Shown here: positions 3,486-56,477 of the stretch, in pieces
Numbering within the stretch: position 1 is the first letter of the stretch
How the letters are laid out: every line of letters starts with the position of its first letter
NCBI RefSeq assembly: GCF_030684315.1
Contig: NC_081358.1
Location: 93,150,458 to 93,214,457 of the forward strand
Direction of reading: 5' to 3'
From: Stegostoma tigrinum
Lineage: Eukaryota
DNA length: 64,000 nucleotides
Position numbers and translations under genes: made by a program
Notes under the pieces: generated by a model
What the model was told of the DNA's origin: nothing
Database searches by the model: none
What the model saw: only the letters and a program-made list of their open reading frames with translations

Positions 3486-3627
3486 GCTGTAAACACAAGT
3501 TGTTCCTCTCCTCCGCTAGATCTCAATGTCAAGAGAGTCACTGCAGGGGACAGCTACTGGAGCTGGTCACTGACGCCATGATAGACCCGGTACCTCTCCC
3601 ATCACTAACCAACCACGGTCGGGACCC
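3486..3627 (+). repeat. 142-bp direct repeat, copy 1 (UQCRB intron 1)
   Basis: gctgtaaacacaag...gtcgggaccc; 4 mismatches to copy 2 at 4178-4319. Confidence 0.97.
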
Positions 3628-4177: not shown

Positions 4178-4319
4178 GCTGTAAACACAAGTTGTTCCTC
4201 TCCTCCGCTAGATCTCAATGTCAAGAGAGTCACTGCAGGAGACAGCTACTGGAGCAGGTCACTGACGCCAGGATAGACCTGGTACCTCTCCCATCACTAA
4301 CCAACCACGGTCGGGACCC
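4178..4319 (+). repeat. 142-bp direct repeat, copy 2 (upstream of the UQCRB promoter)
   Basis: Near-identical to 3486-3627. Confidence 0.97.
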
Positions 4320-12292: not shown

Positions 12293-12550
12293 GTAAAATG
12301 TTCCATGGAGCTTTACAAGAATGCTTCCAAAAAAAACTTGACATTGAGCCACCCAAAAATATTAAGGCAGGTGCTGGAAAGGAACATGTTAAAAGAGGAG
12401 ATGTTAAAAGATAGTGCATTGGAAGGGTTAGACTGAGAATTTTAGAGCTTAACTCCTTACCAGCTGAAACCACTGCTGCTACAATGGGCTGATGAAAGCT
12501 GGAGACTTGCAAGAGGCTATTGTTGGAGAAACCAGATGCCTGAGCCGCTC

Positions 12551-12975
12551 TGTGACATCTACGACCGCGATCTTCTTGTCTTTCTTAAATATGAGATCGG
12601 GTTTCCATAGGGAGCCGTGTTTGTCGATTAGTCTGGGCTCCACATACGATGTCCAGCCGTACTTACTGACGTGTTCCTGCAACTGGTCAGCGATCTTGTT
12701 ATGGCGTTTGATTCGAGCGTTTTTAACGAATGGGCAGTATCCTGAGATGTGTGGTAGGGTCTCATTTGCCATCTCACATCTACGGCATAGTTTGTTTCTG
12801 TTCGGCCTACCTCTAGATATTGTGGTTCTCGTCGGGTATAGATTACACCGCAAGAGCACGCTGTTAATGAATCTAGAGGATTTTTGTTGTACTCCAGCCT
12901 TAGTCCAAGAGTTAGAGATCTTGTCATCTCTAAAGTACTGGATGCCCGTTCCCTGACATTCCAGCTTTTGCCTGA
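12551..12975 (-). mobile_element. Internal fragment of an RLE-type non-LTR retrotransposon (R2/NeSL/Utopia-like): CCHC knuckle plus the start of the PD-(D/E)xK endonuclease
   Basis: In ORF 12479..13069(-): QGTG...CRRC...ETLPHISGYC...RIKRHNKI...EPRL...KPDLIF...VVDVT. Confidence 0.9.
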
Positions 12976-13189
12976 GGTTTATTGGACTCGAAGTGGGGAG
13001 ACCCAAGACCATGGAAAAATTTGAAAATAAGGACAAGAATTTCAAAGTGGCAAGCACAGGGTGATGCATGAGCTTTTTTTTTTAAAAAGAGTTAGGACAG
13101 AAGCAGCATAATTTTGGAGTAGCTGAAATTTAAGGGAGACTATCTAAGAACGCACTGTGCCAACTGAGCCTAAATGTAACAGCTACAAG

Positions 13190-27178: not shown

Positions 27179-29498
27179 CTGAGATTTAAATAAAAATATT
27201 AAATTAGCTGATTTACAATTCTAGCACAGAACAGATTAAACAGAGCACACTTAACTCTTCTAACCACTCGTGTTATATTTCATAGGATGTACGGCACAGA
27301 AACGGGTCAGTTGGGTTAGTGGGTCAGTGCCAGTAGTTCTGAAGAAAAGTCATACCAGACTCAAAACGTTAATTCTCTTTCTCTCTCCACACATGCTACC
27401 AGACCTGCTGAGTTTCTCCAGTATTGCCTGTGTTTGTTTCATGCCACTGGTTCTGCTCAACCTGAACCTTCTCACCTTTTCTCACCTGACCTATTCAACC
27501 CTTCACTCCCTTCTCCCTCATCTGCTTGTTTACCTGCACCTTAAATTCTTCACTATAGCCTTTAATTAATTCCTGTGATAGTGAGTTTCACATTTTTTAA
27601 TACATTTTAGGTAAATTAATTACTTTTGAGTTCCCTACTGGATTTTGCAGTGAAAGCCTACTTTGACAGCCTCTAGTTATGCTCTTCCCCACATGAAGCA
27701 ACATTCTTTAAGCATTCTATCAAAATCTTTAGCAATTTTAAAAGGTCTCTTTTTAACCTTTTGACCAAGAATAACAGACACCATTTGTTAATCCTTTACT
27801 GATATGCATATCCACACATTTATGGTATCATCCTTATAAATCTTCTCTGTATTCTAAACAATACAACTCTAGTTTTCTCTGATAAGACACTTCCAAGTAC
27901 CGACCCAATATCTCATCTGTCTCACTGTCATACATTGTTCATAATGCTCCTATCGGGTACCTTTTCGTAACATTCCAGATGTTACACAAGTTGTTGCTGT
28001 ATAGCATTTTAATAATAATACTTCACAGACAACCAGAACTATATTCAGTACCGAGTACAGTCTAAGCAAGGTTTGTTACAGGTTTAGCATAGTGCGAAGT
28101 TTTCGATTCTATCCCTCTTGAAACAAAGACCAGTGTTTGGTGTGCTTCATCTTTAATGGCCTAGCTAGCTTTTGGCACAACTTTTAGCAATTGGTTTATT
28201 TATTCTCCCTGGAGCTCTTTGTACATCCACCTCACAGACTTTACTTCCAAGCAATAGTGGCCTCCCTATATTTCCTAGAAAATATAGTCTCTCTTAATTA
28301 TCTGTGTTGCAATTCATTTGCCAATTACTTTACCGCTCTGCAAGTTTATTAATACCCTTCCGTAATTTGTTGGCTGCCTTCCTCAGAACTGACTTTCCGT
28401 TCTCCCTTGCTCCTGCCCGAAGTAGTGTCATCTACAAATTGATAATTTGTTTTTGATTCTAGAGCTACTTATTTCCAATTTTCATTTCAGATTTCCAGCA
28501 TCCACAAAATCTTGCTTTTGTGATCTGCTAACCTTCTTCTTTCCTAACAATCATTAGGCACTTTATTTGTAGTCAATGTTGCAGAACTTCTCAGTTTCAT
28601 TGTGATGCTTAACACCACTCCAAAGTAAGACTTGTAAGTACGTCACCAGGAAACTCCATTATGAGATATGTATATCTCCACTGAATGTTACTAAGAAATC
28701 AATGTAATTTCTTTCAGATGAAAGAAATACAATGTAGTGCATCACTCATTCATACAATTTAGGGACATTACAAATACATGAATCGTGTGTGATACTTGCA
28801 ATGTTGCCACCTTATGTGTGTGCACTGCAAAGGTTCAGTCTGTAGTTTGAACTCATTCACATAACTACATGGAAGAATTAGTAATAAATATCTAAATTCC
28901 AGGTGAAAACAGGCTTAGATTGTGTTGCATTGACCTCAGTGAAGAAGCGTCTCGACTCGAAACGTCAACTTTCCTGCTTCTCTGATGCTGCCCGGCCTGC
29001 TGTGTTTCTCCAGCTCCACACTGTTATCTCTTTCAATTTTGGATAACCATTACAAAGCCAGTTATAAAGGCACGTTTCCCAATAGAATATTCCAAGGAGA
29101 CTCAGACTATCAAAAAAGATTTTACACCGAACCACTCAAGGGGACAGTAAGACAGACTTGATCAAAAGAAGTCAGACAAAGGTACAGAGGTTTAGGGAGG
29201 GGTTCCAGAGTTTAGGACCCAGCCACCTGAATGTTAATTGAAGATTAACTCATGGCAATTTGATATTGAAGGGCACCTTAAAAGCACCAACACCATCATT
29301 CTGTATGTGTTCATATGATGATGCAGGAAAATTCTTGCAATAGCATTTCATTGATCTAATAACTCCCTGGTTCATTGGCTGAATTAAAAATGTGCAACTG
29401 GTGAAATAGATATATGAAGAAGACATTCATCTTCAATACATTGAATGTATATCAATTTACACTTTAACTGCATTCAACTAAAAAATAACATTGCTTAC

Positions 29499-29826
29499 CT
29501 ACAGTTTGTATATCTTTCACCAGACTAGGCACTTCTGATTTGCCATGGTTATCATCTGTGTTTTGCATAATACTGCTTTCTGTAAACTGTCCAGTGCCAT
29601 CTTCTTTACTTGGTGGCAAGTTTGATGCTGAGGAACTCGATTTAGAACTTTTCAACATCCAGGGTTTTTGCGTCAAGAGGCATTGACGTGCATCTAAACC
29701 AAAGCGAGTCTGAATGCCGTAGGAAGCTGTAGGCAACACCTTTATTTCTTGCCTTGAAGACCAAACTAGACCAGTAATTCTCAATGAAGTCCATCGGTAA
29801 CAAATGCGATGACACAGTGAGGACAT
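29499..29826 (-). CDS. MTERF3: MTERF3 first coding exon (mitochondrial presequence region); the exon starts at 29848
   Basis: Acceptor tttacag|G, ATG at 29826, donor TAG|gtaagc. The 328 nt join the other exons in frame to give 1248 nt, or 415 aa plus stop. Confidence 0.9.
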
Positions 29827-31180
29827 CTTTGTTCAATTTAACGTGATCCTGTAAACAACAAATGTAATGAGTAAATAGTAAGCCATATTCATAGAACATA
29901 GAACAGTACAGCACAGAACAGGCCCTTCAGCCCACAATGTTGTGCCGACCATTGATCCTACATATTGAGAAAGAAAATTTTCTGGAACACATTTAACAAA
30001 TTCTTCATCATCCAAACCTTTAACACTGTGTAACCTCCACCAACCTCACAACCCAACAAGACCTCAGCCTTCCCTCAGTTCCGAACCCCTGCACATCCCC
30101 AGCTTTCATCACCCATTCCTTTAGCTGAAGGCCCTAAGCGCTGGAACCCAGCAACTCCCCTCCAACCTCTCCCCACGCCACCCGCCCCCAGACGCTCCCC
30201 AAAACCTAATTCCGTGATCCCTGCCACATGTCTTCATATCTCCCTCAGCGGTCTGGCGCCTCCCCGCGTCCAAGATGCCGTGCAAACATCCGGGATGAGC
30301 GGCTTAACTGATGAGAAAAGGCCAGACAGCTGGTGTGCATTAGAACTATGGTAAAGATTATGTTAAAATTAATTTTAAGTGTTTCAAAGCTTTAACCCTT
30401 TGAATACTTACAGATTTGAAATAGAAAAGCAAAATATGAAATGTAGACCATGGGCTGAATTTTCATTCTGGGTTGCAACTCTGGCACAGGTATATTTCCG
30501 GGTCCTGACCCCATCACATCAGTGCCTGATGTCCAACACAATTTGTTAACCTGAAGGCCAGTGTGTCCATCACCAACCAATTAAAAATGATGGCTAGAGA
30601 GCCAACAGTGAGGCTACTGAGCACTGAAAGATTGGTTGCTCACCTCTGACAAAGTTCCACTGTAAATGTAGAACAGGGTGCTGTCGATGTCAGGAGGACA
30701 GAGATGGAAGTGTCCTCTGAAGACCGATTCATAAATTTTAAAAATCAGTGGGACCCCAGCTGCCAGGCCAGCAATGTAAATGGGCAGTCTTTAGAATAGC
30801 TAGAAGCCACTGTGGCTATTGGTAGTTGTGACGGGCAGGGGCACTATGAAAGGTCTCATACTAAATGGAGTATAGCCTCTAGGTTTAAGACAGAAGTCAT
30901 GGTGTAAATCACACTGGCACTGGGCACAATCATCAAATCCTTACTGCATATTGGACTGGTGCCAGAGAATTGGAGACTTAGAAATGTTACACCCCTAATT
31001 TAGAATAAAGGAAGAGAACCCAATAACTGCTGGCCATACAACATGGCATTTGCAGCAGAGACAGAGTGGTTAGCAAAGCATGTGAGATCTTCATCTTCAC
31101 AAACAGAAAAAAAGTATTAAGTACAAAAAGTACAGAAATGAATTTCTGCTGAACCCTTATAAAGCTCTGATTAGGCCGCA

Positions 31181-33554
31181 CTGCAACCTCTCAGTCTGGA
31201 ATATTTGGGACCAAGCCATTTCTGGATTACAGAGAGAGGTTAAAATTCTTAACCACAAGTATTAGAACCAGAAAACATCATGCATATAAATATTTACTGG
31301 AGACACAAAATACTGATAACATTTTGTGAAGTAATAATAAAATTTATTTTACTTATTCAAATATACATATTTATGCTTATAATTTCAAAGTACTGTATCA
31401 AAATGCTGTTGATGACTTAAAGGGAACAAGTTATTCCATACATTGCTTTGTTGCACCAATATTTAGAAGAGGCATAGGAGAAAATCGATGATAATTGATA
31501 GCAAGAGCAGTCAACTCTGGGTCCTTTGTTTCATTGACTCTGCTGGTTGATGGGATCGAGCTCAGCGATGTCGATGGTGTGTGCACAAACGACTTTCCAA
31601 CTTCATCAAACATTTGCTGCAGCTTCATTTGTTTCATGTGTTTTGGTTGCTCACTTATCAGTTTCTCTTGGATCCTGTGTACATGCATTATATCTTGCTG
31701 GCTTACAAAGCTTTGTTGCTCAAGAAAGCGAATGAAACGGGAAGCTAGACTGATCCCCTCTTCCAAGGTAATTTTCTCCCCAGTAGCATTATCTTCTTCA
31801 TTGCTGTTATCACTATCCTCAGACTTGCGGTGTAAAACTACCTGAATTGTCTCTGAACTTGTTACTTGTTGTACAACTGAAGTATTATCTTCACAATTTA
31901 ACCATGTCAAAATGTCTTCCTCATTTAAGTCACTTCCCATTTGCTTGGTACAACACAAGAGATCAGTCACCATTGCCTTGGCTTCACTTAAATTAAAACC
32001 CTCCGAGCTTTCCCCTGTGTCCTCATCGTTAAACACAATTACAGGACACAACTTACGCCATGCATTTTGTAAGGTTCTCCTTGTGACACTGTCCCATGCA
32101 TTTGCCAAACACCACATACCATCTTTGAGACTCAAGGCATTCTCAAAAGCATCAACACCACCAGTATTGTAGCGGCTCACAAGACGACGCAAAAAACTGT
32201 TTCTGTAGTGACTTTTCATTGACCTAATAACTCCTTGGTTCATTAGCTGAATTGAAGATGAGCAACTAGCAGGTAGAGAGGTAGGGAAGACATTATCAGC
32301 ATCTAATTGTTCTCTAGGGGGGTGAGCTGTGCAGTTGTTTAAAAGAAGGAGAATTTTGCAATCTGAAGCCAAGCCAACCTCTCTACAGTGTGCACGAGCC
32401 TCTGGAACAAAATGATTATGGAACCAATCACTCAGTATTTCCTGGGTGACCCTTGAACATTTATTGGCTTCATAAAGCACCGGCATGATTTTCATTCCTT
32501 TGAAAACACGAGGCTTAGGACATTTACCAACAACCAAAAGTTTACACTTATGTGTTCCAGCAACATTAGCACATGCGAGCACAGTAATTCTTTCTGCTGA
32601 TTCTTTGTAATCATGTACCATCATCTCCTCTGCACCAGCAAGCCTGTGTCGTGGCAGACATCTCCAGAAAACATCTGTCTCATCCACATTATATATTTGC
32701 TCAGGGCTAAGATCCTCATCCTTCATTAACATTGCAAAGTCAGTATGTAACATTCAACAGCCCGTTTATCTGCAGAAGTTTGTTCACCAGTAGCCTTGAG
32801 GTGAATTCCGTGCCTATGTTTAAACTTCTGCAACCAACCTTGAGAGTACTCACACACAGAATTAATTTTCATATCAGTAAGAAATTGTTTGGCCTTTTCC
32901 ATCAGCATTGCTCCCGAAATAGGGAGCCCCTCACTACGACGTTGCCTGAACCACTTATACAGGACATTATCATGGTCAGCAGATTTAGCACGATGCAGCA
33001 TTCTGCGTTCATTAATTCCTTTAACTGTGTCACTTTCAGCACAAAATTTAAATAACTTTTCACGCTGCTTCTTGATGTCATAAATTGTTGAGACCCCCAC
33101 ACCATATGCCTCACACAATGACTTTACTGAAGAACCTTTATCTAGTTTATTTATGATTTCAATCTTTTCTGAGATTGTAAGTGTAACATGCTTACGTTTT
33201 GCTGCACTTTTCTTAGATGCCATGGTGAAAGTTCAAAAGACAAACTATATCCTAAGAATAATTAGGTCTGCTCAAAATCACCCCTGCAGAGAGTTTGGGC
33301 GGGAAATGGCAGGCAACAGAGGGGATGAGGTGATCCTGTAGGATGGAAGAGTACAACAAAGTTAAAAAGTCACTCTGAGTACAAGACAAGGTTACAAAGT
33401 CACTCAACCCTTGAAATCCTGCGCTCTCCTCAACGAGGTGAACTCATGCCTTCCCGATTTGCTGCAGCACCTGGGTCTAGATCTGCTCAAAAGATATCCA
33501 GAGAACTGTTTTTATCTTTCTAAACAATAAATTTCCAGGCCGGAGAAGTTGCAG
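31181..33554 (-). mobile_element. Full-length Tigger/pogo-family DNA transposon (~2.37 kb) with decayed TIRs, inserted into a CR1 fragment
   Basis: TIRs at 31181-31201 and 33533-33554 (18/22 aligned positions identical). The flanks rejoin as CR1 'aaagctctgattaggccgca...gagtattg' (KALIRP..EYC). Confidence 0.85.
31431..33223 (-). CDS. JRKL/TIGD-like pogo transposase (HTH_psq + CENP-B HTH + DDE_1), split by one 1-nt frameshift at ~32745; intact gene or recent pseudogene
   Basis: ORF 32726..33223 (KRKHVTLTISEK, LYKWFRQRRSEG, SQGWLQKFKHRHG) and ORF 31431..32753 (IYNVDET, RITVLACAN, LLLNNC, QLMNQGVI) overlap. No internal stop codons. Confidence 0.88.
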
Positions 33555-34000
33555 AGTATTGTTCCCGGTTCTTGTGATCACACGTGAGGAAACATCTAGA
33601 TGTGCAGAAGAAACTTACCAGAAGTGACAGCATAGATGAGGGACATTAGCTGCAAGGTTAGTTTGGAAAAATTGGTGTTGTTCTCCTGGAACAAAGGAGA
33701 TTCAGTAAGAGCTTTATTAGAATATGGCATAAAATAGAGAAGTAAAAACTGTCCAGAATTAGATGATAGTACAAGGGCTAAGGGAACACAGCTGTAAAGT
33801 TTAGGATAAGGGAACAGTATAAGCAACAAGTATAAATGACCTGGAAGATGCTAACAGGTTGCTGGAAGTAGAAACCATCATTTATAGAGAAGATTGAACG
33901 GACGCTACAGGGATTGAGTAAGGAAATGGAATCGAATGGGTCGTTCCGAAGACAGCTAGCATATACTCGAATGACCAAATGATTACGTACTGTTCAGGTT
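33555..34000 (+). mobile_element. CR1 fragment, right half (left half at ~30930-31180)
   Basis: gagtattg...gtgcagaagaaacttaccag continues the CR1 RT C-terminal sequence interrupted by the Tigger element. Confidence 0.7.
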
Positions 34001-34089
34001 CGACAGGCAATCTAAATTAATTTAAAGAATTTAAAAGAGCAGGAACAAGTCAGGAAAGCTGTTAAAAAGGCGTTGGGGTTTGCTAGGCC

Positions 34090-34450
34090 TTTGTCAGGCG
34101 CCAATTAATCTGCAACTGGTGGTTACGTCCATCTCTGAGTAGCACGCCACTTTCGGAAAGAGATATAAGTCTGAGGGAGTTTTCAGAGCGGTCGCTGGGA
34201 TAAAAGATTTCGGTTGGGCTACCTGTAGAGAGTAAGGTGAAGCCGCCCGGAGAGCGCACACAACAGCCTCACAAGTACTCACCGTAATCATTCCGACCGG
34301 GAAACAAAGTGTAGAGACTGAATGAGCACTGCTCCAAGGAGGAAGAGAAACAGTAGCGCACTGGCTGCACGGCACAGGGTTCAGTGCTCGTACAGGCTAC
34401 CGCTTCCTCAGCTCCAAATCGGTGAAGGCGTGAACCGACTAAATCGGAGG
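34090..34450. promoter_or_regulatory. CpG-rich bidirectional promoter / first-exon region of MTERF3 (-) and PTDSS1 (+); candidate MTERF3 non-coding exon 1 ends at 34283
   Basis: Local CpG enrichment and a consensus minus-strand donor ACG|GTGAGT at 34283/34282. The head-to-head arrangement of these genes is known in vertebrates. Confidence 0.65.
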
Positions 34451-35505
34451 AGGAGACGTAGGCCATTCGGCCCGCTGAGACTGCTTCGCTACTTAATCGT
34501 GGTTGATCTATTAATCGTCAACTTCACTTTCTTCGGTCCCCCTATAATCATGGATTCCCTCACTGATATAAAAATATCTTTGTCAGCCTTGGATGTAATT
34601 AATAACTTTATTCCAGAGGGCTTTTGAAGCAATGAATTCCACACATTAAGTACCATGTTAGAGAAAAAAAGTCCTTCACATCGCAGTTTTAAACTCTCTG
34701 GTCCTGGTTTCTTTCACGGGGAAACAACTTGTCCACAATCTATCCTCTTGAATCCTTTAATAATCTTGTATATTTCAATAAGCTTACCTTTCATTCTTAT
34801 AAATTCCAACAAGTACAGGCCTATTTAACCTTTCTCAAAGACAGTCTTTCATACTTGGCATCAGCCTAGTGAACCTTTGCTAGATTGCTTCCAATGCCAG
34901 TGTATCATTTTTTTAGATGAGAGCCCCGAAACCGTTCACAGTATTCCAGCTGTGGTCCGACTAGCGCCTTCTGTAGTTTTAGCAAAATCTCCCTTTTGTT
35001 TTTACTCCTTTCTCTTTAAAATAAATATCAACATTCCATTTGCTCTCTCCCTAGTTAGTGATGGTTTTTTAAGCCATGCTGTTTCTGGGTCCCTCTACAC
35101 AGACTTGAGGACTATCTCTTTTTCTTGTCAGACTTAGTAGGTCTCTGTCTCTCTCTACTTTGTGTCCTACTGGGCCGTGTAAGGAGGTCTCTTTCTCACC
35201 TGCCACAGCTTAGATTCAGGGCGCTGTTTCAACCCATTGCTCTCAACGCAGACTAGCGAGCTATCTGTTTCCCTCTCCTGATAGAGCAGGCTGGAAGGTG
35301 TCTCTCTGTGCATCCTGCTAGGGTGGGTTAGGAATTTTCTCTGTCTCTTTATTCTGATGATCTGGATTAGATGGTGTCTCCGTTTGTGTCTGAACTGAGA
35401 CACATCTCTCTGTCTTGATTAAAAGTGTTTCTCTGTATGCCCCATTGGCCTGAGTAAGAGGTAGCTCTCTGCCTCTGTCTAGAAAAACAAGTGTATCTCT
35501 TTATG

Positions 35506-36383: not shown

Positions 36384-36562
36384 ATGGCGTCTGCTAAAGG
36401 CAGCAGGACAATCAGCAAGGATGATGTGAATTATAAACTGCATTTCCGTATGATCAATGAGCAGCAAGTGGAGGATATCACCATTGACTTCTTCTACAAG
36501 CCTCACACTATCACCCTGCTCACTTTTACCATCATTAGTGTCATGTATTTCGCTTTTACTAG
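36384..36562 (+). CDS. PTDSS1: PTDSS1 (phosphatidylserine synthase 1) coding exon 1
   Basis: [46 protein letters not shown]...FAFTR; 179 nt; donor gtactg. Confidence 0.97.
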
Positions 36563-43476: not shown

Positions 43477-43746
43477 GGTAGGCAAACAGGAGGCTGGAAG
43501 AACACAGCAAGCTAGGCAGCATCTGGAGGAAAGGAGCAGTCAACGTTTCGAGTATTACCCTTCTTCAGGACTGTATGTGGTGGTAGGGGACTCAGGAGCT
43601 CCCCCTACCCCCACATCCAGTCCTGAAGAATGGTAATACTCGAAACGTTGACTGCTCCTTTCCTCCAGATGCTGCCTGCCTTCTTTTGTTCTTCCAGCCT
43701 CCTGTTTGTTTACCTTGGATTCCAGCATCTGCAGGGATTTTTTTGT
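43477..43746. mobile_element. Penelope-like tail-to-tail inverted-repeat insertion (~105-bp arms) with a minimal hammerhead motif on each strand
   Basis: Arms at ~43484-43590 and ~43601-43708. Imperfect TSD cccagtaagtttt / cccattaagcttt at 43462 and 43747. Confidence 0.85.
43618..43654 (+). ncRNA. Minimal type I hammerhead ribozyme motif (mirror copy at 43537-43573 on the minus strand)
   Basis: cagtc-CTGAAGA-a-(t/g)ggtaatactc-GAAAC-GTT-gactg: 5-bp stem I, stem II and a palindromic ACGT stem III. The minus copy has the better-paired stem II. Confidence 0.65.
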
Positions 43747-48690: not shown

Positions 48691-48937
48691 AAAAACTGGC
48701 AGAACTGCAAATGCTGTAAATCAGAAACACAAACAGAAATTGCTGGAAAAGCTCAGCAGGTCTGGCAGCATCTATGGAGAGAAATCAGAGCTGACGTTTC
48801 AGACCCAGTGACCCTTACTAAGGACTCAAGCAACGTGTTGTGAAGAAGGGTCACTGGACCCGAAACATTAACTCTGCTTTTTCTCCACAGAATCTGCTAG
48901 ACCTGCTGAACTCTTCCAGCAGGTTTTGTTTCTGTCA
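48691..48937. mobile_element. Short Penelope-like inverted-repeat insertion with TSD
   Basis: Flanks caggtatattact / caggtacatttct. gTGAAGA-A-GGGTC-ACTG-GACCC-GAAAC at ~48840-48866. Confidence 0.75.
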
Positions 48938-52300: not shown

Positions 52301-54050
52301 TGAAAATCTGCAGTAGAGAATCCCAAAGACTGTTAGCCCATTGACTGACCAATTATTCTGAAACTGTGACTCCAGGTTGGAAACTCTTCAGTCAGGGGAA
52401 AATTTCTTGCTGGTGTCTAGCCTGTCAAATCCCTTAAGAGTTTTATGTGTTTCAATTAGATCACTTCTCATTCTTCTAAATTCTAGGGGAATATAGGTCT
52501 ACTCTACACAATAAATCTACATAGGACAATCCTGTCATCCCAGGAGTCAGTCTAGTGAGCCTTCGTTGCAATCCCTCCAAGGCAAGTATATCCTTCCTTA
52601 AGTAAGGAGTCTAAAACTTCATAGAGTACTCTGGGTCTGGTCTCATCAGAGCCCTGTATGATTATGGTAAGACTTCTTTACTCTGAAACTCCAAGCCCTA
52701 TATGATAAAGGCTAGTATTCTAGTTTCTTCATGAAGCTTGCTGTATCTACATGTTGGCTATCCGTTATTCGTATTCAAGGTCACCCAGGTCCCTCTGACT
52801 AGTAACATTTAGCAGTCTACCACTACAAGCACATTAATTAGAGGCAGAAGCAGGCTGTTGGGACCCTCAAACCTTCTCCGCCATTCAGAATGGTTGTTGC
52901 TAATCAGGTTGTGTTTCAAATTTCCCATTCACCTATGATAATCTTTGATTCTCCTGCCTAATATCATCATCTACCTCAGCCTTACAAATAATCCCACTGA
53001 TCCTGCCTTCAGTACCTTCTAAGACAGGGTGTTCATTGTTTTTTAAAGTTCTATTTCTGTACTCTTCCTTTCTAAGTGAATAAGTTCGTGTTTCCTTGTC
53101 CAGTCACTCATAACATTTACGTTCCTCATTTTCCCACCTATTGTTAGTGAACCTAGTTTGTAAAATCAGTCCCCTCAAGTATATCATTGATTTGGATTGT
53201 AAATGGTTGCTGCTCAGGCACTAGTCTTTGTGGGCCAGCTAGCTATATACAGCCTGCAAACCCATAAATTCCCATTCATTCCTACTGTTTGTTTTCTGTG
53301 AGTGGTTAATCCAACATTCTTTCTGATATATTACCCTCCATGCCATGTGCAGTAATTTTGTGTAATAACATCATGTGTGGCACTTCAAGGAAGGGATTTT
53401 GAAAAATCCACATACGCCGCATCTGTTGATTTCCCCTCGTCAAACGGTTTTCCATTAGACTGAAAACAGAAAATGCTGGAAATCACAGTGGGCCAGACAG
53501 CATCTGTGGAGAGAAAGCAAGCTAACATTTCAAGTCTAGATGACTTTAGTTTGCTCTGATGAGTCATCTCAACACAACAGTATCTTGCTCTCTCTCCACA
53601 GATGTTGCCTACCTGCTGTGATTTCCAGCATTTTGTTTTTCGTTTTTGGTACAGATTCCAGCATCTGCTGTAATTTGCTTCTTGCATGTCAATTCTCATT
53701 CATCATATGATTTTTGAAATAGTTCAATTACATTTGCTATATTCCAGTTAATTAGAACTGTTCTAAAATCTTGAGTCTTCTGTAAAATTAAAACAATGTG
53801 TGCATACCCTTTTAAAACCCTTTGATGCAGACCATCACATCTAGGGGATGTGTCAGCTTTCAAAATCATTATACTTCTCCTGCACTATTCCTTTACTACT
53901 GCTAATTTCGTTAATTTTCTCATTCTGACTAGACTCTTGATTCACTACTATTTCCAGAATGTTCTTTGTGTCTTCTGCTGTGAAGACAGACAGACAGACA
54001 TTACAAACAAAAACTGTCATTTCCTTATTTTGTAATCTGAGAAAGGACAA
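49400..54050. mobile_element. Cluster of degenerate CR1 fragments in both orientations, with embedded Penelope-like remnants (~51255-51540 and ~53460-53680)
   Basis: Recurrent CR1 motifs (RSCLT, DFSK, tggaatgaacttccagagg) and gagtcat-type tails. Confidence 0.7.
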
Positions 54051-56319: not shown

Positions 56320-56477
56320 CGAGATAATGGGAACTGCAGATGCTGGAGAATCGAAGATAATAAAGTGTGAAGCTGGATGAACACAGCAGGCCAAGCAGCA
56401 TCTCAGGAGCACAATCTTGCGCTCCTGAGATGCTGCTTGGCCTGCTGTGTTCATCCAGCTTCACACTTTATTATCTC
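56320..56477. mobile_element. Young Penelope-like fold-back insertion: perfect 56-bp inverted repeat, 10-nt spacer, 10-bp TSD
   Basis: Arms 56355-56410 and 56421-56476 are exact reverse complements. taaacatatc occurs at 56310-56319 and 56478-56487. Confidence 0.92.

What the first reader, a model, noticed from the sequence alone, without database searches (positions are those of the whole stretch)
31343..34283. The transposase is laid out as a 3' exon trap driven by the MTERF3 promoter
On the MTERF3 strand the signals appear in this order: a consensus donor ACG|GTGAGT (34283/34282), an acceptor ctaattattcttAG|G (33253-33252) 28 nt before a strong Kozak caccATGG (33223), the stop at 31431 and AATAAA at 31348-31343. 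The MTERF3 first-coding-exon acceptor follows at 29848. One non-coding first exon could therefore splice either to the transposase, as a terminal exon, or to MTERF3. This parallels the CSB-PGBD3 exon trap. It would couple or trade off a nuclear DNA-binding protein against a mitochondrial regulator.
Basis: partly seen in the sequence, partly recalled or inferred. Interest (0 to 1): 0.72.

Follow-up and report, generated by a model that had tools for sequence, protein, structure and literature searches.

The report
Shark transposase shares MTERF3's first exon
In these sharks an old jumping gene sits at the front of an essential mitochondrial gene: the mitochondrial message is spliced from a site inside the jumping gene's own tenth codon, and transcripts that skip this splice probably encode the jumping gene's protein, which is cut short in this species.

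Summary
All five signals are at the stated coordinates, but the wiring differs. The element is a Tigger (pogo) transposon, about 33556-31179 on the minus strand, inserted into an older CR1 LINE upstream of the first coding exon of shark MTERF3. In 3 of 3 RNA-like runs from related sharks, MTERF3 is spliced from a donor inside transposase codon 10 (33195) to 29848. No joint from 34283 was listed, and two runs cross the proposed 33251 acceptor unspliced. The likely choice is splice at 33195 (MTERF3) or read through to the poly(A) signal at 31348 (transposase), closer to ZBED6/ZC3H11A than to a CSB-PGBD3 exon trap. The transposase start thereby becomes a strong 12-codon upstream ORF ending 11 nt before the MTERF3 start. 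Full-length orthologues in three shark orders follow the species tree, which points to domestication. In this genome the ORF is frameshifted near codon 161 (matched by a DNA-like run) and two catalytic aspartates are asparagines, leaving a 165-residue DNA-binding product. The whale-shark protein is tabulated in print as a JRK; I found no description of the MTERF3 link. Regulation and function are untested.

The parts
31179..33556 (-). Tigger/pogo DNA transposon remnant, about 2.38 kb
   Evidence: 26-nt inverted repeat, 73% complementary, at 33529-33554 and 31181-31206; both ends coincide with the break in a CR1 fragment; 20 of 38 related loci examined have TA-flanked TIRs and lengths of 1.9-2.7 kb
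33529..33558 (-). Degenerate 5' terminal inverted repeat with the flanking TA (33558-33557)
   Evidence: weak against a matrix of distant Tigger TIRs, rank 1,907 of 127,956
31179..31206 (+). Degenerate 3' terminal inverted repeat; no TA on this side
   Evidence: rank 187 of 127,956
32726..33223 (-). Transposase ORF, 5' part: 165 aa with both DNA-binding domains (CENP-B_N 9-60, HTH_Tnp_Tc5 83-143); the product this allele would make
   Evidence: the orthologue P0003 matches CENP-B 1hlv over residues 13-138
32743..32744 (-). One-base frameshift relative to relatives, near codon 161
   Evidence: runs X1 and X2 carry one more base behind 32743; run X5 matches the window from 30308 to 34560 with 0 differences and 0 gaps; tblastn changes frame at 32744
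31431..32743 (-). Transposase ORF, 3' part: DDE_1 domain with the second and third catalytic D changed to N, and a C-terminal tail shared by the four shark proteins
33190..33198 (-). Splice donor AAC|GTAAGC inside transposase codon 10, used for MTERF3
   Evidence: joint 29847-33195, GT..AG on the minus strand, in X1, X2 and X3 and not in X5; motif
29849..33195 (-). Observed MTERF3 intron (3,347 nt) holding most of the transposase
   Evidence: table 5
33196..33852 (-). Shared 5' exon: at least 120 nt in X2, up to 33852 in one X3 contig; made of transposase codons 1-10, the transposon leader, the TIR and a CR1 remnant. True start not mapped
   Evidence: table 8 (records 9 and 16); a contig does not prove a single molecule
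29838..33223 (-). 12-codon upstream ORF in the spliced MTERF3 mRNA (33223-33196 plus 29848-29838), ending 11 nt before the MTERF3 ATG, out of frame with it
   Evidence: computed from the joint
29499..29848 (-). MTERF3 first coding exon, ATG at 29826
31343..31348 (-). AATAAA 83 nt after the transposase stop; likely poly(A) signal of the read-through mRNA
   Evidence: RNA-like contigs end at 31404 (X1) and 31381 (X3) while X5 goes on: a weak hint
34277..34285 (-).
   Evidence: no joint from it is listed
33251..33266 (-).
   Evidence: bridged by X2 record 9 and X3 record 16
31062..31178 (+). CR1 LINE remnant, left half of the insertion target
   Evidence: nhmmer profile positions 58-176, E 3.6e-9; RT residues 169-205
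33557..33702 (+). CR1 LINE remnant, right half of the insertion target
   Evidence: nhmmer profile positions 168-330, E 3.9e-10; RT residues 207-268
33801..34600 (.). CpG-rich stretch, likely promoter region of the shared transcript (inferred)
   Evidence: CpG observed/expected 0.72-1.12 in four 200-nt windows

Best explanation
A Tigger transposon inserted, in the sense of MTERF3, into a CR1 remnant upstream of the first coding exon of MTERF3 in an ancestor of galeomorph sharks, and was kept as a single gene. Transcripts start upstream of or within the element's 5' end. If the donor in transposase codon 10 is used, 3,347 nt are removed and MTERF3 mRNA results (shown in relatives' RNA); it carries the transposase start as a strong 12-codon upstream ORF that should lower MTERF3 translation (inferred). 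If the donor is skipped, the transcript runs through the transposase and ends at the element's own poly(A) signal (partly shown), giving a nuclear DNA-binding protein (inferred). Catalytic residues were lost in the line leading to whale shark and this species. This species then took a frameshift that leaves only the two DNA-binding domains; whether that short protein is used is open (about 0.4).
For: Joint 33195 to 29848 with GT..AG ends in 3 of 3 RNA-like runs (2 organisms, 3 studies) and 0 of 1 DNA-like run; 4 of the 8 listed runs were laid. All 3 RNA-like runs have contigs on the transposase; in X1 and X3 the rest of the same intron (30092-30956) has none. Intact 595-598 aa proteins in Chiloscyllium, Carcharodon and Scyliorhinus torazame are 71-83% identical, form one clade (SH-aLRT 100) with the species branching, and the next full-length hit is 53%. 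The Chiloscyllium protein is named an MTERF3 isoform; the Scyliorhinus protein and its MTERF3 lie on contigs of the same length. Coding DNA differs less than non-coding: X1 47/1550 vs 36/598 (p 0.002), X2 50/1505 vs 40/720 (p 0.015), X3 19/793 vs 40/658 (p 0.0005). pN/pS 0.44 on 23 of 26 differences of one X1 contig. CR1 halves join across the element. Private changes in this lineage: 3 of 160 in the DNA-binding part, 19 of 234 in linker plus DDE, p 0.007.
Against: All RNA evidence is assembled contigs from related species, RNA only by guess; none is from this species, and contigs give no start, end, strand or level. The contig that reads through the donor (X3 record 22) has only 25 letters upstream of it, under the tool's 31-letter rule. 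X2 also has contigs in the non-coding intron (30338-30781), so pre-mRNA or DNA is present there. The TIRs are weak by matrix score and one TA is missing. This lineage has no overall excess of private changes (34 vs 37 in Chiloscyllium, p 0.81; DDE 19 vs 12, p 0.28), and its 10:5 non-synonymous to synonymous split does not differ from the relative's 3:5 (p 0.22), so neither relaxation nor continued use is shown. Synteny was not seen at DNA level outside this window. No protein, binding site or regulation is shown.
Confidence: 0.7

Rival explanations
1. An upstream non-coding exon (donor 34283) is spliced into the element at 33335 or 33251 in a good share of transcripts, so the element is a trapped exon that is then either re-spliced at 33195 to MTERF3 or read through. 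This keeps half of the first reader's model.
For: The 34283 donor is a near-perfect consensus, rare by chance, in a CpG-rich stretch. The X2 MTERF3 contig begins at about 33316, close to the 33335 acceptor (12 of 15 pyrimidines). A public annotation groups transposase and MTERF3 as isoforms; a shared upstream intron would be one reason. Contigs drop minor forms.
Against: No such joint among the 4 listed; X2 and X3 bridge 33251 unspliced and X3 bridges 33335 too. Only 6 of 20 TIR-bounded distant relatives have an acceptor-like site in the leader and 2 of 20 an AATAAA in the tail, so exon-trap signals are not a general trait of those elements.
Confidence: 0.15
2. The transposase is not a functional gene. 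Its RNA is unspliced or prematurely ended MTERF3 pre-mRNA, and the element stays only because MTERF3 needs the donor in its 5' end.
For: Frameshift and two D-to-N changes here; Gao et al. class cartilaginous-fish JRKs as pseudogenes; X2 shows non-coding intron contigs; MTERF3 is essential in mouse and fly.
Against: Dependence on the donor would protect about 30 nt, not a 1.8-kb frame, yet that frame is open in Chiloscyllium, Carcharodon, Scyliorhinus and whale shark, with lower coding than non-coding divergence. For this species alone the pseudogene reading stays open.
Confidence: 0.1
3. One reading: one exon ending at 34283 splices either to 33251 (transposase as terminal exon) or directly to 29848 (MTERF3).
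For: The motifs lie in that order.
Against: The MTERF3 contig of each of the 3 RNA-like runs joins 29848 to 33195, not to 34283; 33251 is bridged unspliced in 2 of 3.
Confidence: 0.05

Closest known systems
ZBED6 in intron 1 of ZC3H11A (placental mammals; PMC2780926, PMC5834713, PMC5910864, passages read)
   Same: Single-exon transposase-derived gene in the first intron of a host gene, on the host promoter, made when that intron is not removed; first noticed as an annotated splice form of the host, as with the Chiloscyllium protein here.
   Different: ZBED6 is hAT-derived and its mRNA runs on into the remaining host exons (about 13 kb). Here the element is Tigger, seems to end at its own poly(A) signal, and supplies the host's donor and an upstream ORF from its own coding sequence.
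CSB-PGBD3 3' exon trap (primates; PMC2268245, passages read)
   Same: Transposase in a host intron, same strand, with AATAAA after the stop; host and transposase mRNAs are alternatives.
   Different: PGBD3 is reached through its own conserved acceptor, in frame with upstream coding exons, giving a fusion protein. Here no acceptor use is shown, the choice is at a donor, and no fusion frame exists.
JRK and other Tigger-derived genes (JRKL, TIGD2, TIGD5, TIGD7, CENPBD1; PMC7386202)
   Same: CENP-B_N + HTH_Tnp_Tc5 + DDE_1 layout; DD32D spacing as in JRK; the whale-shark orthologue XP_020373306.1 is listed there as 'JRK-rhityp'.
   Different: In my tree the mammalian proteins named jerky group with skate and frog proteins, apart from the four shark proteins. 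The shark gene keeps TIR remnants and a visible insertion site, which fits a separate capture. The paper's text calls cartilaginous JRKs pseudogenes; 'MTERF' does not occur in its domesticated-gene table.

Membership tests
Tigger family of pogo transposons | CENP-B_N and HTH_Tnp_Tc5 DNA-binding domains plus DDE_1 | tested here: met
   Pfam E 2e-12, 2e-15 and 1e-37
Tigger family of pogo transposons | DD29-36D catalytic triad | tested here: met
   DD32D in P0003 and D at all three sites in P0002 and P0004; decayed to D-N-N in this genome
Tigger family of pogo transposons | Short TIRs and TA target duplication | tested here: inconclusive
   73% inverted repeat at both CR1 breakpoints, TA on one side only; weak matrix scores
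Domesticated transposase gene | Intact ORF inherited vertically | tested here: met
   595-598 aa in three shark orders, tree follows the species branching; broken in this genome
Domesticated transposase gene | Purifying selection | tested here: inconclusive
   coding less diverged than non-coding in 3 of 3 runs, pN/pS 0.44 on 23 changes; no codon alignment across orders was possible
Domesticated transposase gene | Single copy at an orthologous locus | tested here: inconclusive
   one cluster per species; naming and contig lengths fit synteny; no genome held; a decayed related fragment lies at 29259-29402
Domesticated transposase gene | Protein made and host function shown | not testable with these tools
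   needs proteomics, binding assays or genetics
3' exon trap (CSB-PGBD3 kind) | Element's own acceptor upstream of the ATG is used | tested here: not met
   33251 bridged unspliced in X2 and X3; no joint into the element listed; minor use not excluded
3' exon trap (CSB-PGBD3 kind) | In-frame fusion with upstream host coding exons | tested here: not met
   all MTERF3 coding exons lie downstream; the observed joint is out of frame
3' exon trap (CSB-PGBD3 kind) | Element's poly(A) signal ends the transcript | tested here: inconclusive
   AATAAA at 31348; contigs end 33-56 nt short of it in two studies, weak hint
Intron-retention gene (ZBED6 kind) | Transposase ORF in host intron 1, expressed from the host's 5' end when the intron is not spliced | tested here: inconclusive
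   shared 5' sequence and contigs on the ORF; a single read-through molecule was not shown
JRK orthologue | Groups with mammalian JRK | tested here: not met
   separate starred clades in a quick IQ-TREE run on 38 chosen proteins; the mammalian rows are taken as JRK by their database names only

The most novel reading that the evidence does not exclude
An essential mitochondrial gene now depends on a transposase's coding sequence for its first splice donor, and the transposase's start codon sets MTERF3 translation as a conserved upstream ORF. The splice-or-polyadenylate choice at codon 10 is a regulated switch, kept by selection across galeomorph sharks, between a nuclear DNA-binding protein and a mitoribosome assembly factor; this species keeps the switch with a protein trimmed to its DNA-binding half.
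Probability: 0.17. Interest if true: 0.78.

Novelty: new variant of a known kind. Interest (0 to 1): 0.52.

Why it matters
It adds a third way for a transposase to live off a host gene, beside exon trapping (PGBD3) and plain intron retention (ZBED6): the host's donor lies inside the transposase ORF, so one splice decision picks the product and the transposase start stays in the host mRNA as an upstream ORF. It also points to a shark-specific domesticated Tigger gene that is filed in print among JRK pseudogenes and in one database as an MTERF3 isoform. The series intact DD32D (Chiloscyllium, Carcharodon, Scyliorhinus), intact frame with D-N-N (whale shark), frameshift (this genome) shows domestication or decay in steps at one locus. 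MTERF3 is essential in mouse and fly (PMC3536695), so any cost of the upstream ORF is testable with a simple reporter.

Tried and rejected
Assembly error as the source of the frameshift: rejected for the sample behind X5, whose contig equals the window across it; X5 differs from the window at 29622, but it could still be related to the assembly's source, and contigs hide rare alleles. Three other joints lack GT..AG ends and touch repeats or come from the DNA-like run; not used. Whole genome: none held, so copy number and synteny were not tested. Cluster members and accessions of the shark proteins could not be looked up, so how the Chiloscyllium annotation links the two products stays open. 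Viral contigs (599 candidates) and prokaryote genomes (600 candidates) held no relative. A TIR matrix from 23 arms of 14 distant elements did not single out the window's ends. blastn of the joined flanks against six CR1 copies gave no alignment across the junction; tblastn and nhmmer did. The careful tree did not finish; the quick tree was used. Absence in squalomorph sharks and rays: no Heptranchias or Pristiophorus protein is among the 120 listed of 354 hits, but Cetorhinus, which should have the gene, is missing too, so this is not evidence. Earlier scan findings: none by place or sequence, one unrelated by words. No structure prediction was run; domains were clear from Pfam and PDB.
Full report
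Observation. All motifs are at the stated coordinates on the minus strand. The host gene is MTERF3: the exon at 29826-29500 is 100% identical to a named Stegostoma tigrinum MTERF3, which maps in 7 coding segments down to 14770. I take the window to be from that species or a very close one (inference). PTDSS1 starts on the plus strand at 36384; the head-to-head layout in human is recalled, not from a call. By chance, the donor and Kozak motifs occur about 0.1 times per kb per strand, acceptor-like sites 0.57 and AATAAA 1.0. The proposed acceptor has 9 pyrimidines in 15; 17 sites between 33190 and 34300 have 10 or more.

The element. Pfam gives CENP-B_N, HTH_Tnp_Tc5 and DDE_1, the Tigger layout described in PMC7386202 (section 9). 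A 26-nt inverted repeat, 73% complementary, lies at 33554-33529 and 31181-31206. Alone it is weak: a matrix from 23 TIR arms of 14 distant elements ranks the two ends 187 and 1,907 of 127,956 positions. The ends are fixed by other evidence. A CR1 reverse transcriptase from elsewhere in the window hits 31060-31181 with residues 169-205 and 33554-33727 with residues 207-268 (single E-values 0.08-1.5). A profile from six CR1 copies of the window hits both flanks in order (E 3.6e-9 and 3.9e-10), and cutting out the element raises the protein match across the junction to E 2e-7 to 4e-6 over five trial cuts. So the transposon jumped into an older LINE; TA is kept on the 5' side only. The acceptor, Kozak site and AATAAA all lie inside the element.

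RNA evidence. No run on record as RNA holds the stretch; four RNA-like runs of two other organisms hold 5-9% of its words and four unlabelled runs of a third hold 95-97%. I laid X1, X3 (organism A), X2 (organism B) and X5 (organism C) on 29400-34560. All are contigs. Of 4 joints listed, one has GT..AG ends: 33195 to 29848 on the minus strand, in X1, X2 and X3 (30, 120 and at least 255 letters on the short side) and not in X5. The donor is AAC|GTAAGC in the arginine codon 10 of the transposase. X2 record 9 runs from 33312 and X3 record 16 from 33852 to this donor without a splice, bridging 33251. No joint uses 34283. All three runs also have contigs on the transposase. X3 record 22 runs from 33220 to 32892 across the donor, but with 25 letters upstream, under the 31 the tool asks for. 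Contigs end at 31404 (X1), 31381 (X3) and 31475 (X2), short of AATAAA at 31348, while X5 goes on; the loose-end table was cut, so this is a weak hint. X1 and X3 have no contig in 30092-30956, inside the same intron; X2 has two there, so it holds pre-mRNA or DNA. Depths cannot rank the two forms.

Consequence for MTERF3. The joint leaves the transposase ATG (CACCATGG) in the MTERF3 mRNA. It opens 12 codons, stops 11 nt before the MTERF3 ATG (AAAGATGT) and is out of frame with it. A strong upstream start so close to the main one should lower translation (general knowledge of scanning and re-initiation, recalled). Whether the relatives keep the stop was not visible in the 40 of 229 differences shown. 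Longer leaders would add up to nine more upstream ATGs.

Orthologues and selection. Four shark proteins stand out: this one, Chiloscyllium punctatum, Carcharodon carcharias and Scyliorhinus torazame, 71-83% identical; the next full-length hit among the 120 listed of 354 is 53%. In a quick tree of 38 proteins that I picked from the 129 held, they form one clade (SH-aLRT 100) split as (Stegostoma, Chiloscyllium) and (Carcharodon, Scyliorhinus), which matches the shark phylogeny as I recall it. Mammalian proteins named jerky fall elsewhere, with skate proteins. The Chiloscyllium protein is named 'transcription termination factor 3, mitochondrial isoform X1' though it has only transposase domains. 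For scale, MTERF3 is 81% identical between this species and Scyliorhinus and the transposase 71%. On the contig pieces shown, transposase DNA differs from the window by 2.4-3.3% and non-coding DNA by 5.6-6.1% (p 0.002, 0.015, 0.0005; X1 and X3 are one organism; one X1 piece straddling the stop was left out and one X3 piece straddling it kept). Of 23 listed differences on one X1 contig (26 in all), 10 are silent and 13 change a residue, pN/pS 0.44 (p 0.044 against neutral). Nine of the 13 are derived in the window's lineage.

State in this genome. X1 and X2 have one more base behind 32743; X5 equals the window from 30308 to 34560, so the frameshift is in that sample's DNA. The second and third catalytic aspartates are asparagines here and aspartates in the other three. 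The whale-shark protein XP_020373306.1 (595 aa), seen in a cut supplement cell of PMC7386202 and compared by eye, keeps the frame but also shows N at both sites, though the table labels it DD32D. Catalytic loss therefore came before the frameshift. The 165-aa product keeps both DNA-binding domains, and an unspliced mRNA has no downstream junction to trigger junction-dependent decay (general knowledge). Private changes are scarce in that part (3 of 160 against 19 of 234, p 0.007), but total private changes equal those of Chiloscyllium (34 vs 37), so a recent frameshift in a dying gene fits as well.

How it works. Shown in relatives: MTERF3 is spliced from a donor inside the transposase. Partly shown: read-through RNA over the transposase ending near its poly(A) signal. 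Inferred: a common promoter in the CpG-rich stretch 33801-34600, translational damping by the upstream ORF, a DNA-binding role. Confidence 0.7. Among 38 of 80 distant metagenome loci examined, 20 had TIRs; 6 of these had an acceptor-like site in the leader, 2 an AATAAA in the tail and 4 a donor-like motif near the start (several are near-copies), so neither wiring is a general Tigger trait in that set.

Comparison. It works most like ZBED6/ZC3H11A: intronless transposase gene in intron 1, common promoter, made by intron retention (PMC2780926 passages; PMC5834713 and PMC5910864 passages). It differs in the internal donor, the upstream ORF and its own poly(A) signal. It fails two defining tests of the CSB-PGBD3 exon trap, acceptor use and in-frame fusion (PMC2268245 passages). 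It is a Tigger-derived gene but not a JRK orthologue by my tree. MTERF3 is essential and needed for the large mitoribosomal subunit (PMC3536695 passages).

Novelty. The protein is in databases and, for whale shark, in a supplement of PMC7386202 (abstract, passages, section 9 and supplement rows seen); the yellow marks that flag pseudogenes there were not visible to me. Searches for MTERF3 with transposase (3 papers), pogo domestication in sharks (3), MTERF3 with uORF (1 listed), shared-exon domesticated transposases (10) and shark Tigger domestication (4) listed nothing on this link; I saw those only as listings. The library lacks most subscription papers, and bioRxiv supplements were closed, so a shark genome paper could mention it unseen.

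Verdict. The regulated-switch reading has probability 0.17 and would merit 0.78.

Noticed in passing
window 29259-29402 (-): Decayed fragment of the same transposase family in the next MTERF3 intron, same strand, 74% identical in DNA over 145 nt to the main copy; it also has N at the third catalytic site.
   Followed up: partly
window 36384-36562 (+): First coding exon of PTDSS1 (PDB phosphatidylserine synthase 1, E 3e-30), head to head with MTERF3.
   Followed up: yes
protein P0054: A Tigger transposase of Pelodiscus sinensis is named 'TOM1-like protein 2 isoform X1': possibly a parallel case of a transposase made as a host-gene isoform.
   Followed up: no
proteins P0043, P0045, P0101 with P0047, P0050, P0051, P0057, P0062, P0078: Skate 'jerky-like' proteins group tightly (SH-aLRT 98, short branches) with mammalian proteins named jerky, which suggests horizontal spread of their parent element or strong constraint.
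   Followed up: no
PMC7386202 supplement 5, JRK sheet, row 7: The whale-shark protein is labelled DD32D but its printed sequence has N at the second and third sites.
   Followed up: yes
protein P0027 against window 29865-29827: The Scyliorhinus MTERF3 isoform X1 has a 17-residue N-terminal extension that aligns into the acceptor region; likely a model that reads the intron end.
   Followed up: no
window 12479-13069 (-): 196-aa ORF with a CCHC motif and endonuclease-like end in a CpG-rich patch, like a non-LTR retrotransposon fragment (recalled likeness); no Pfam hit.
   Followed up: no
window 43477-43714, 48727-48935, 53464-53640, 56355-56476: Self-complementary stretches of 120-240 nt, 73-97% identical arms, MITE-like.
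   Followed up: no
window 3486-3627 and 4178-4319: 142-nt direct repeat, 97% identical, flanking a CpG-rich 550-nt stretch.
   Followed up: no
window 33356-33405: 20-nt direct repeat with 30-nt spacing in the element's leader, just upstream of the 33335 acceptor-like site.
   Followed up: no
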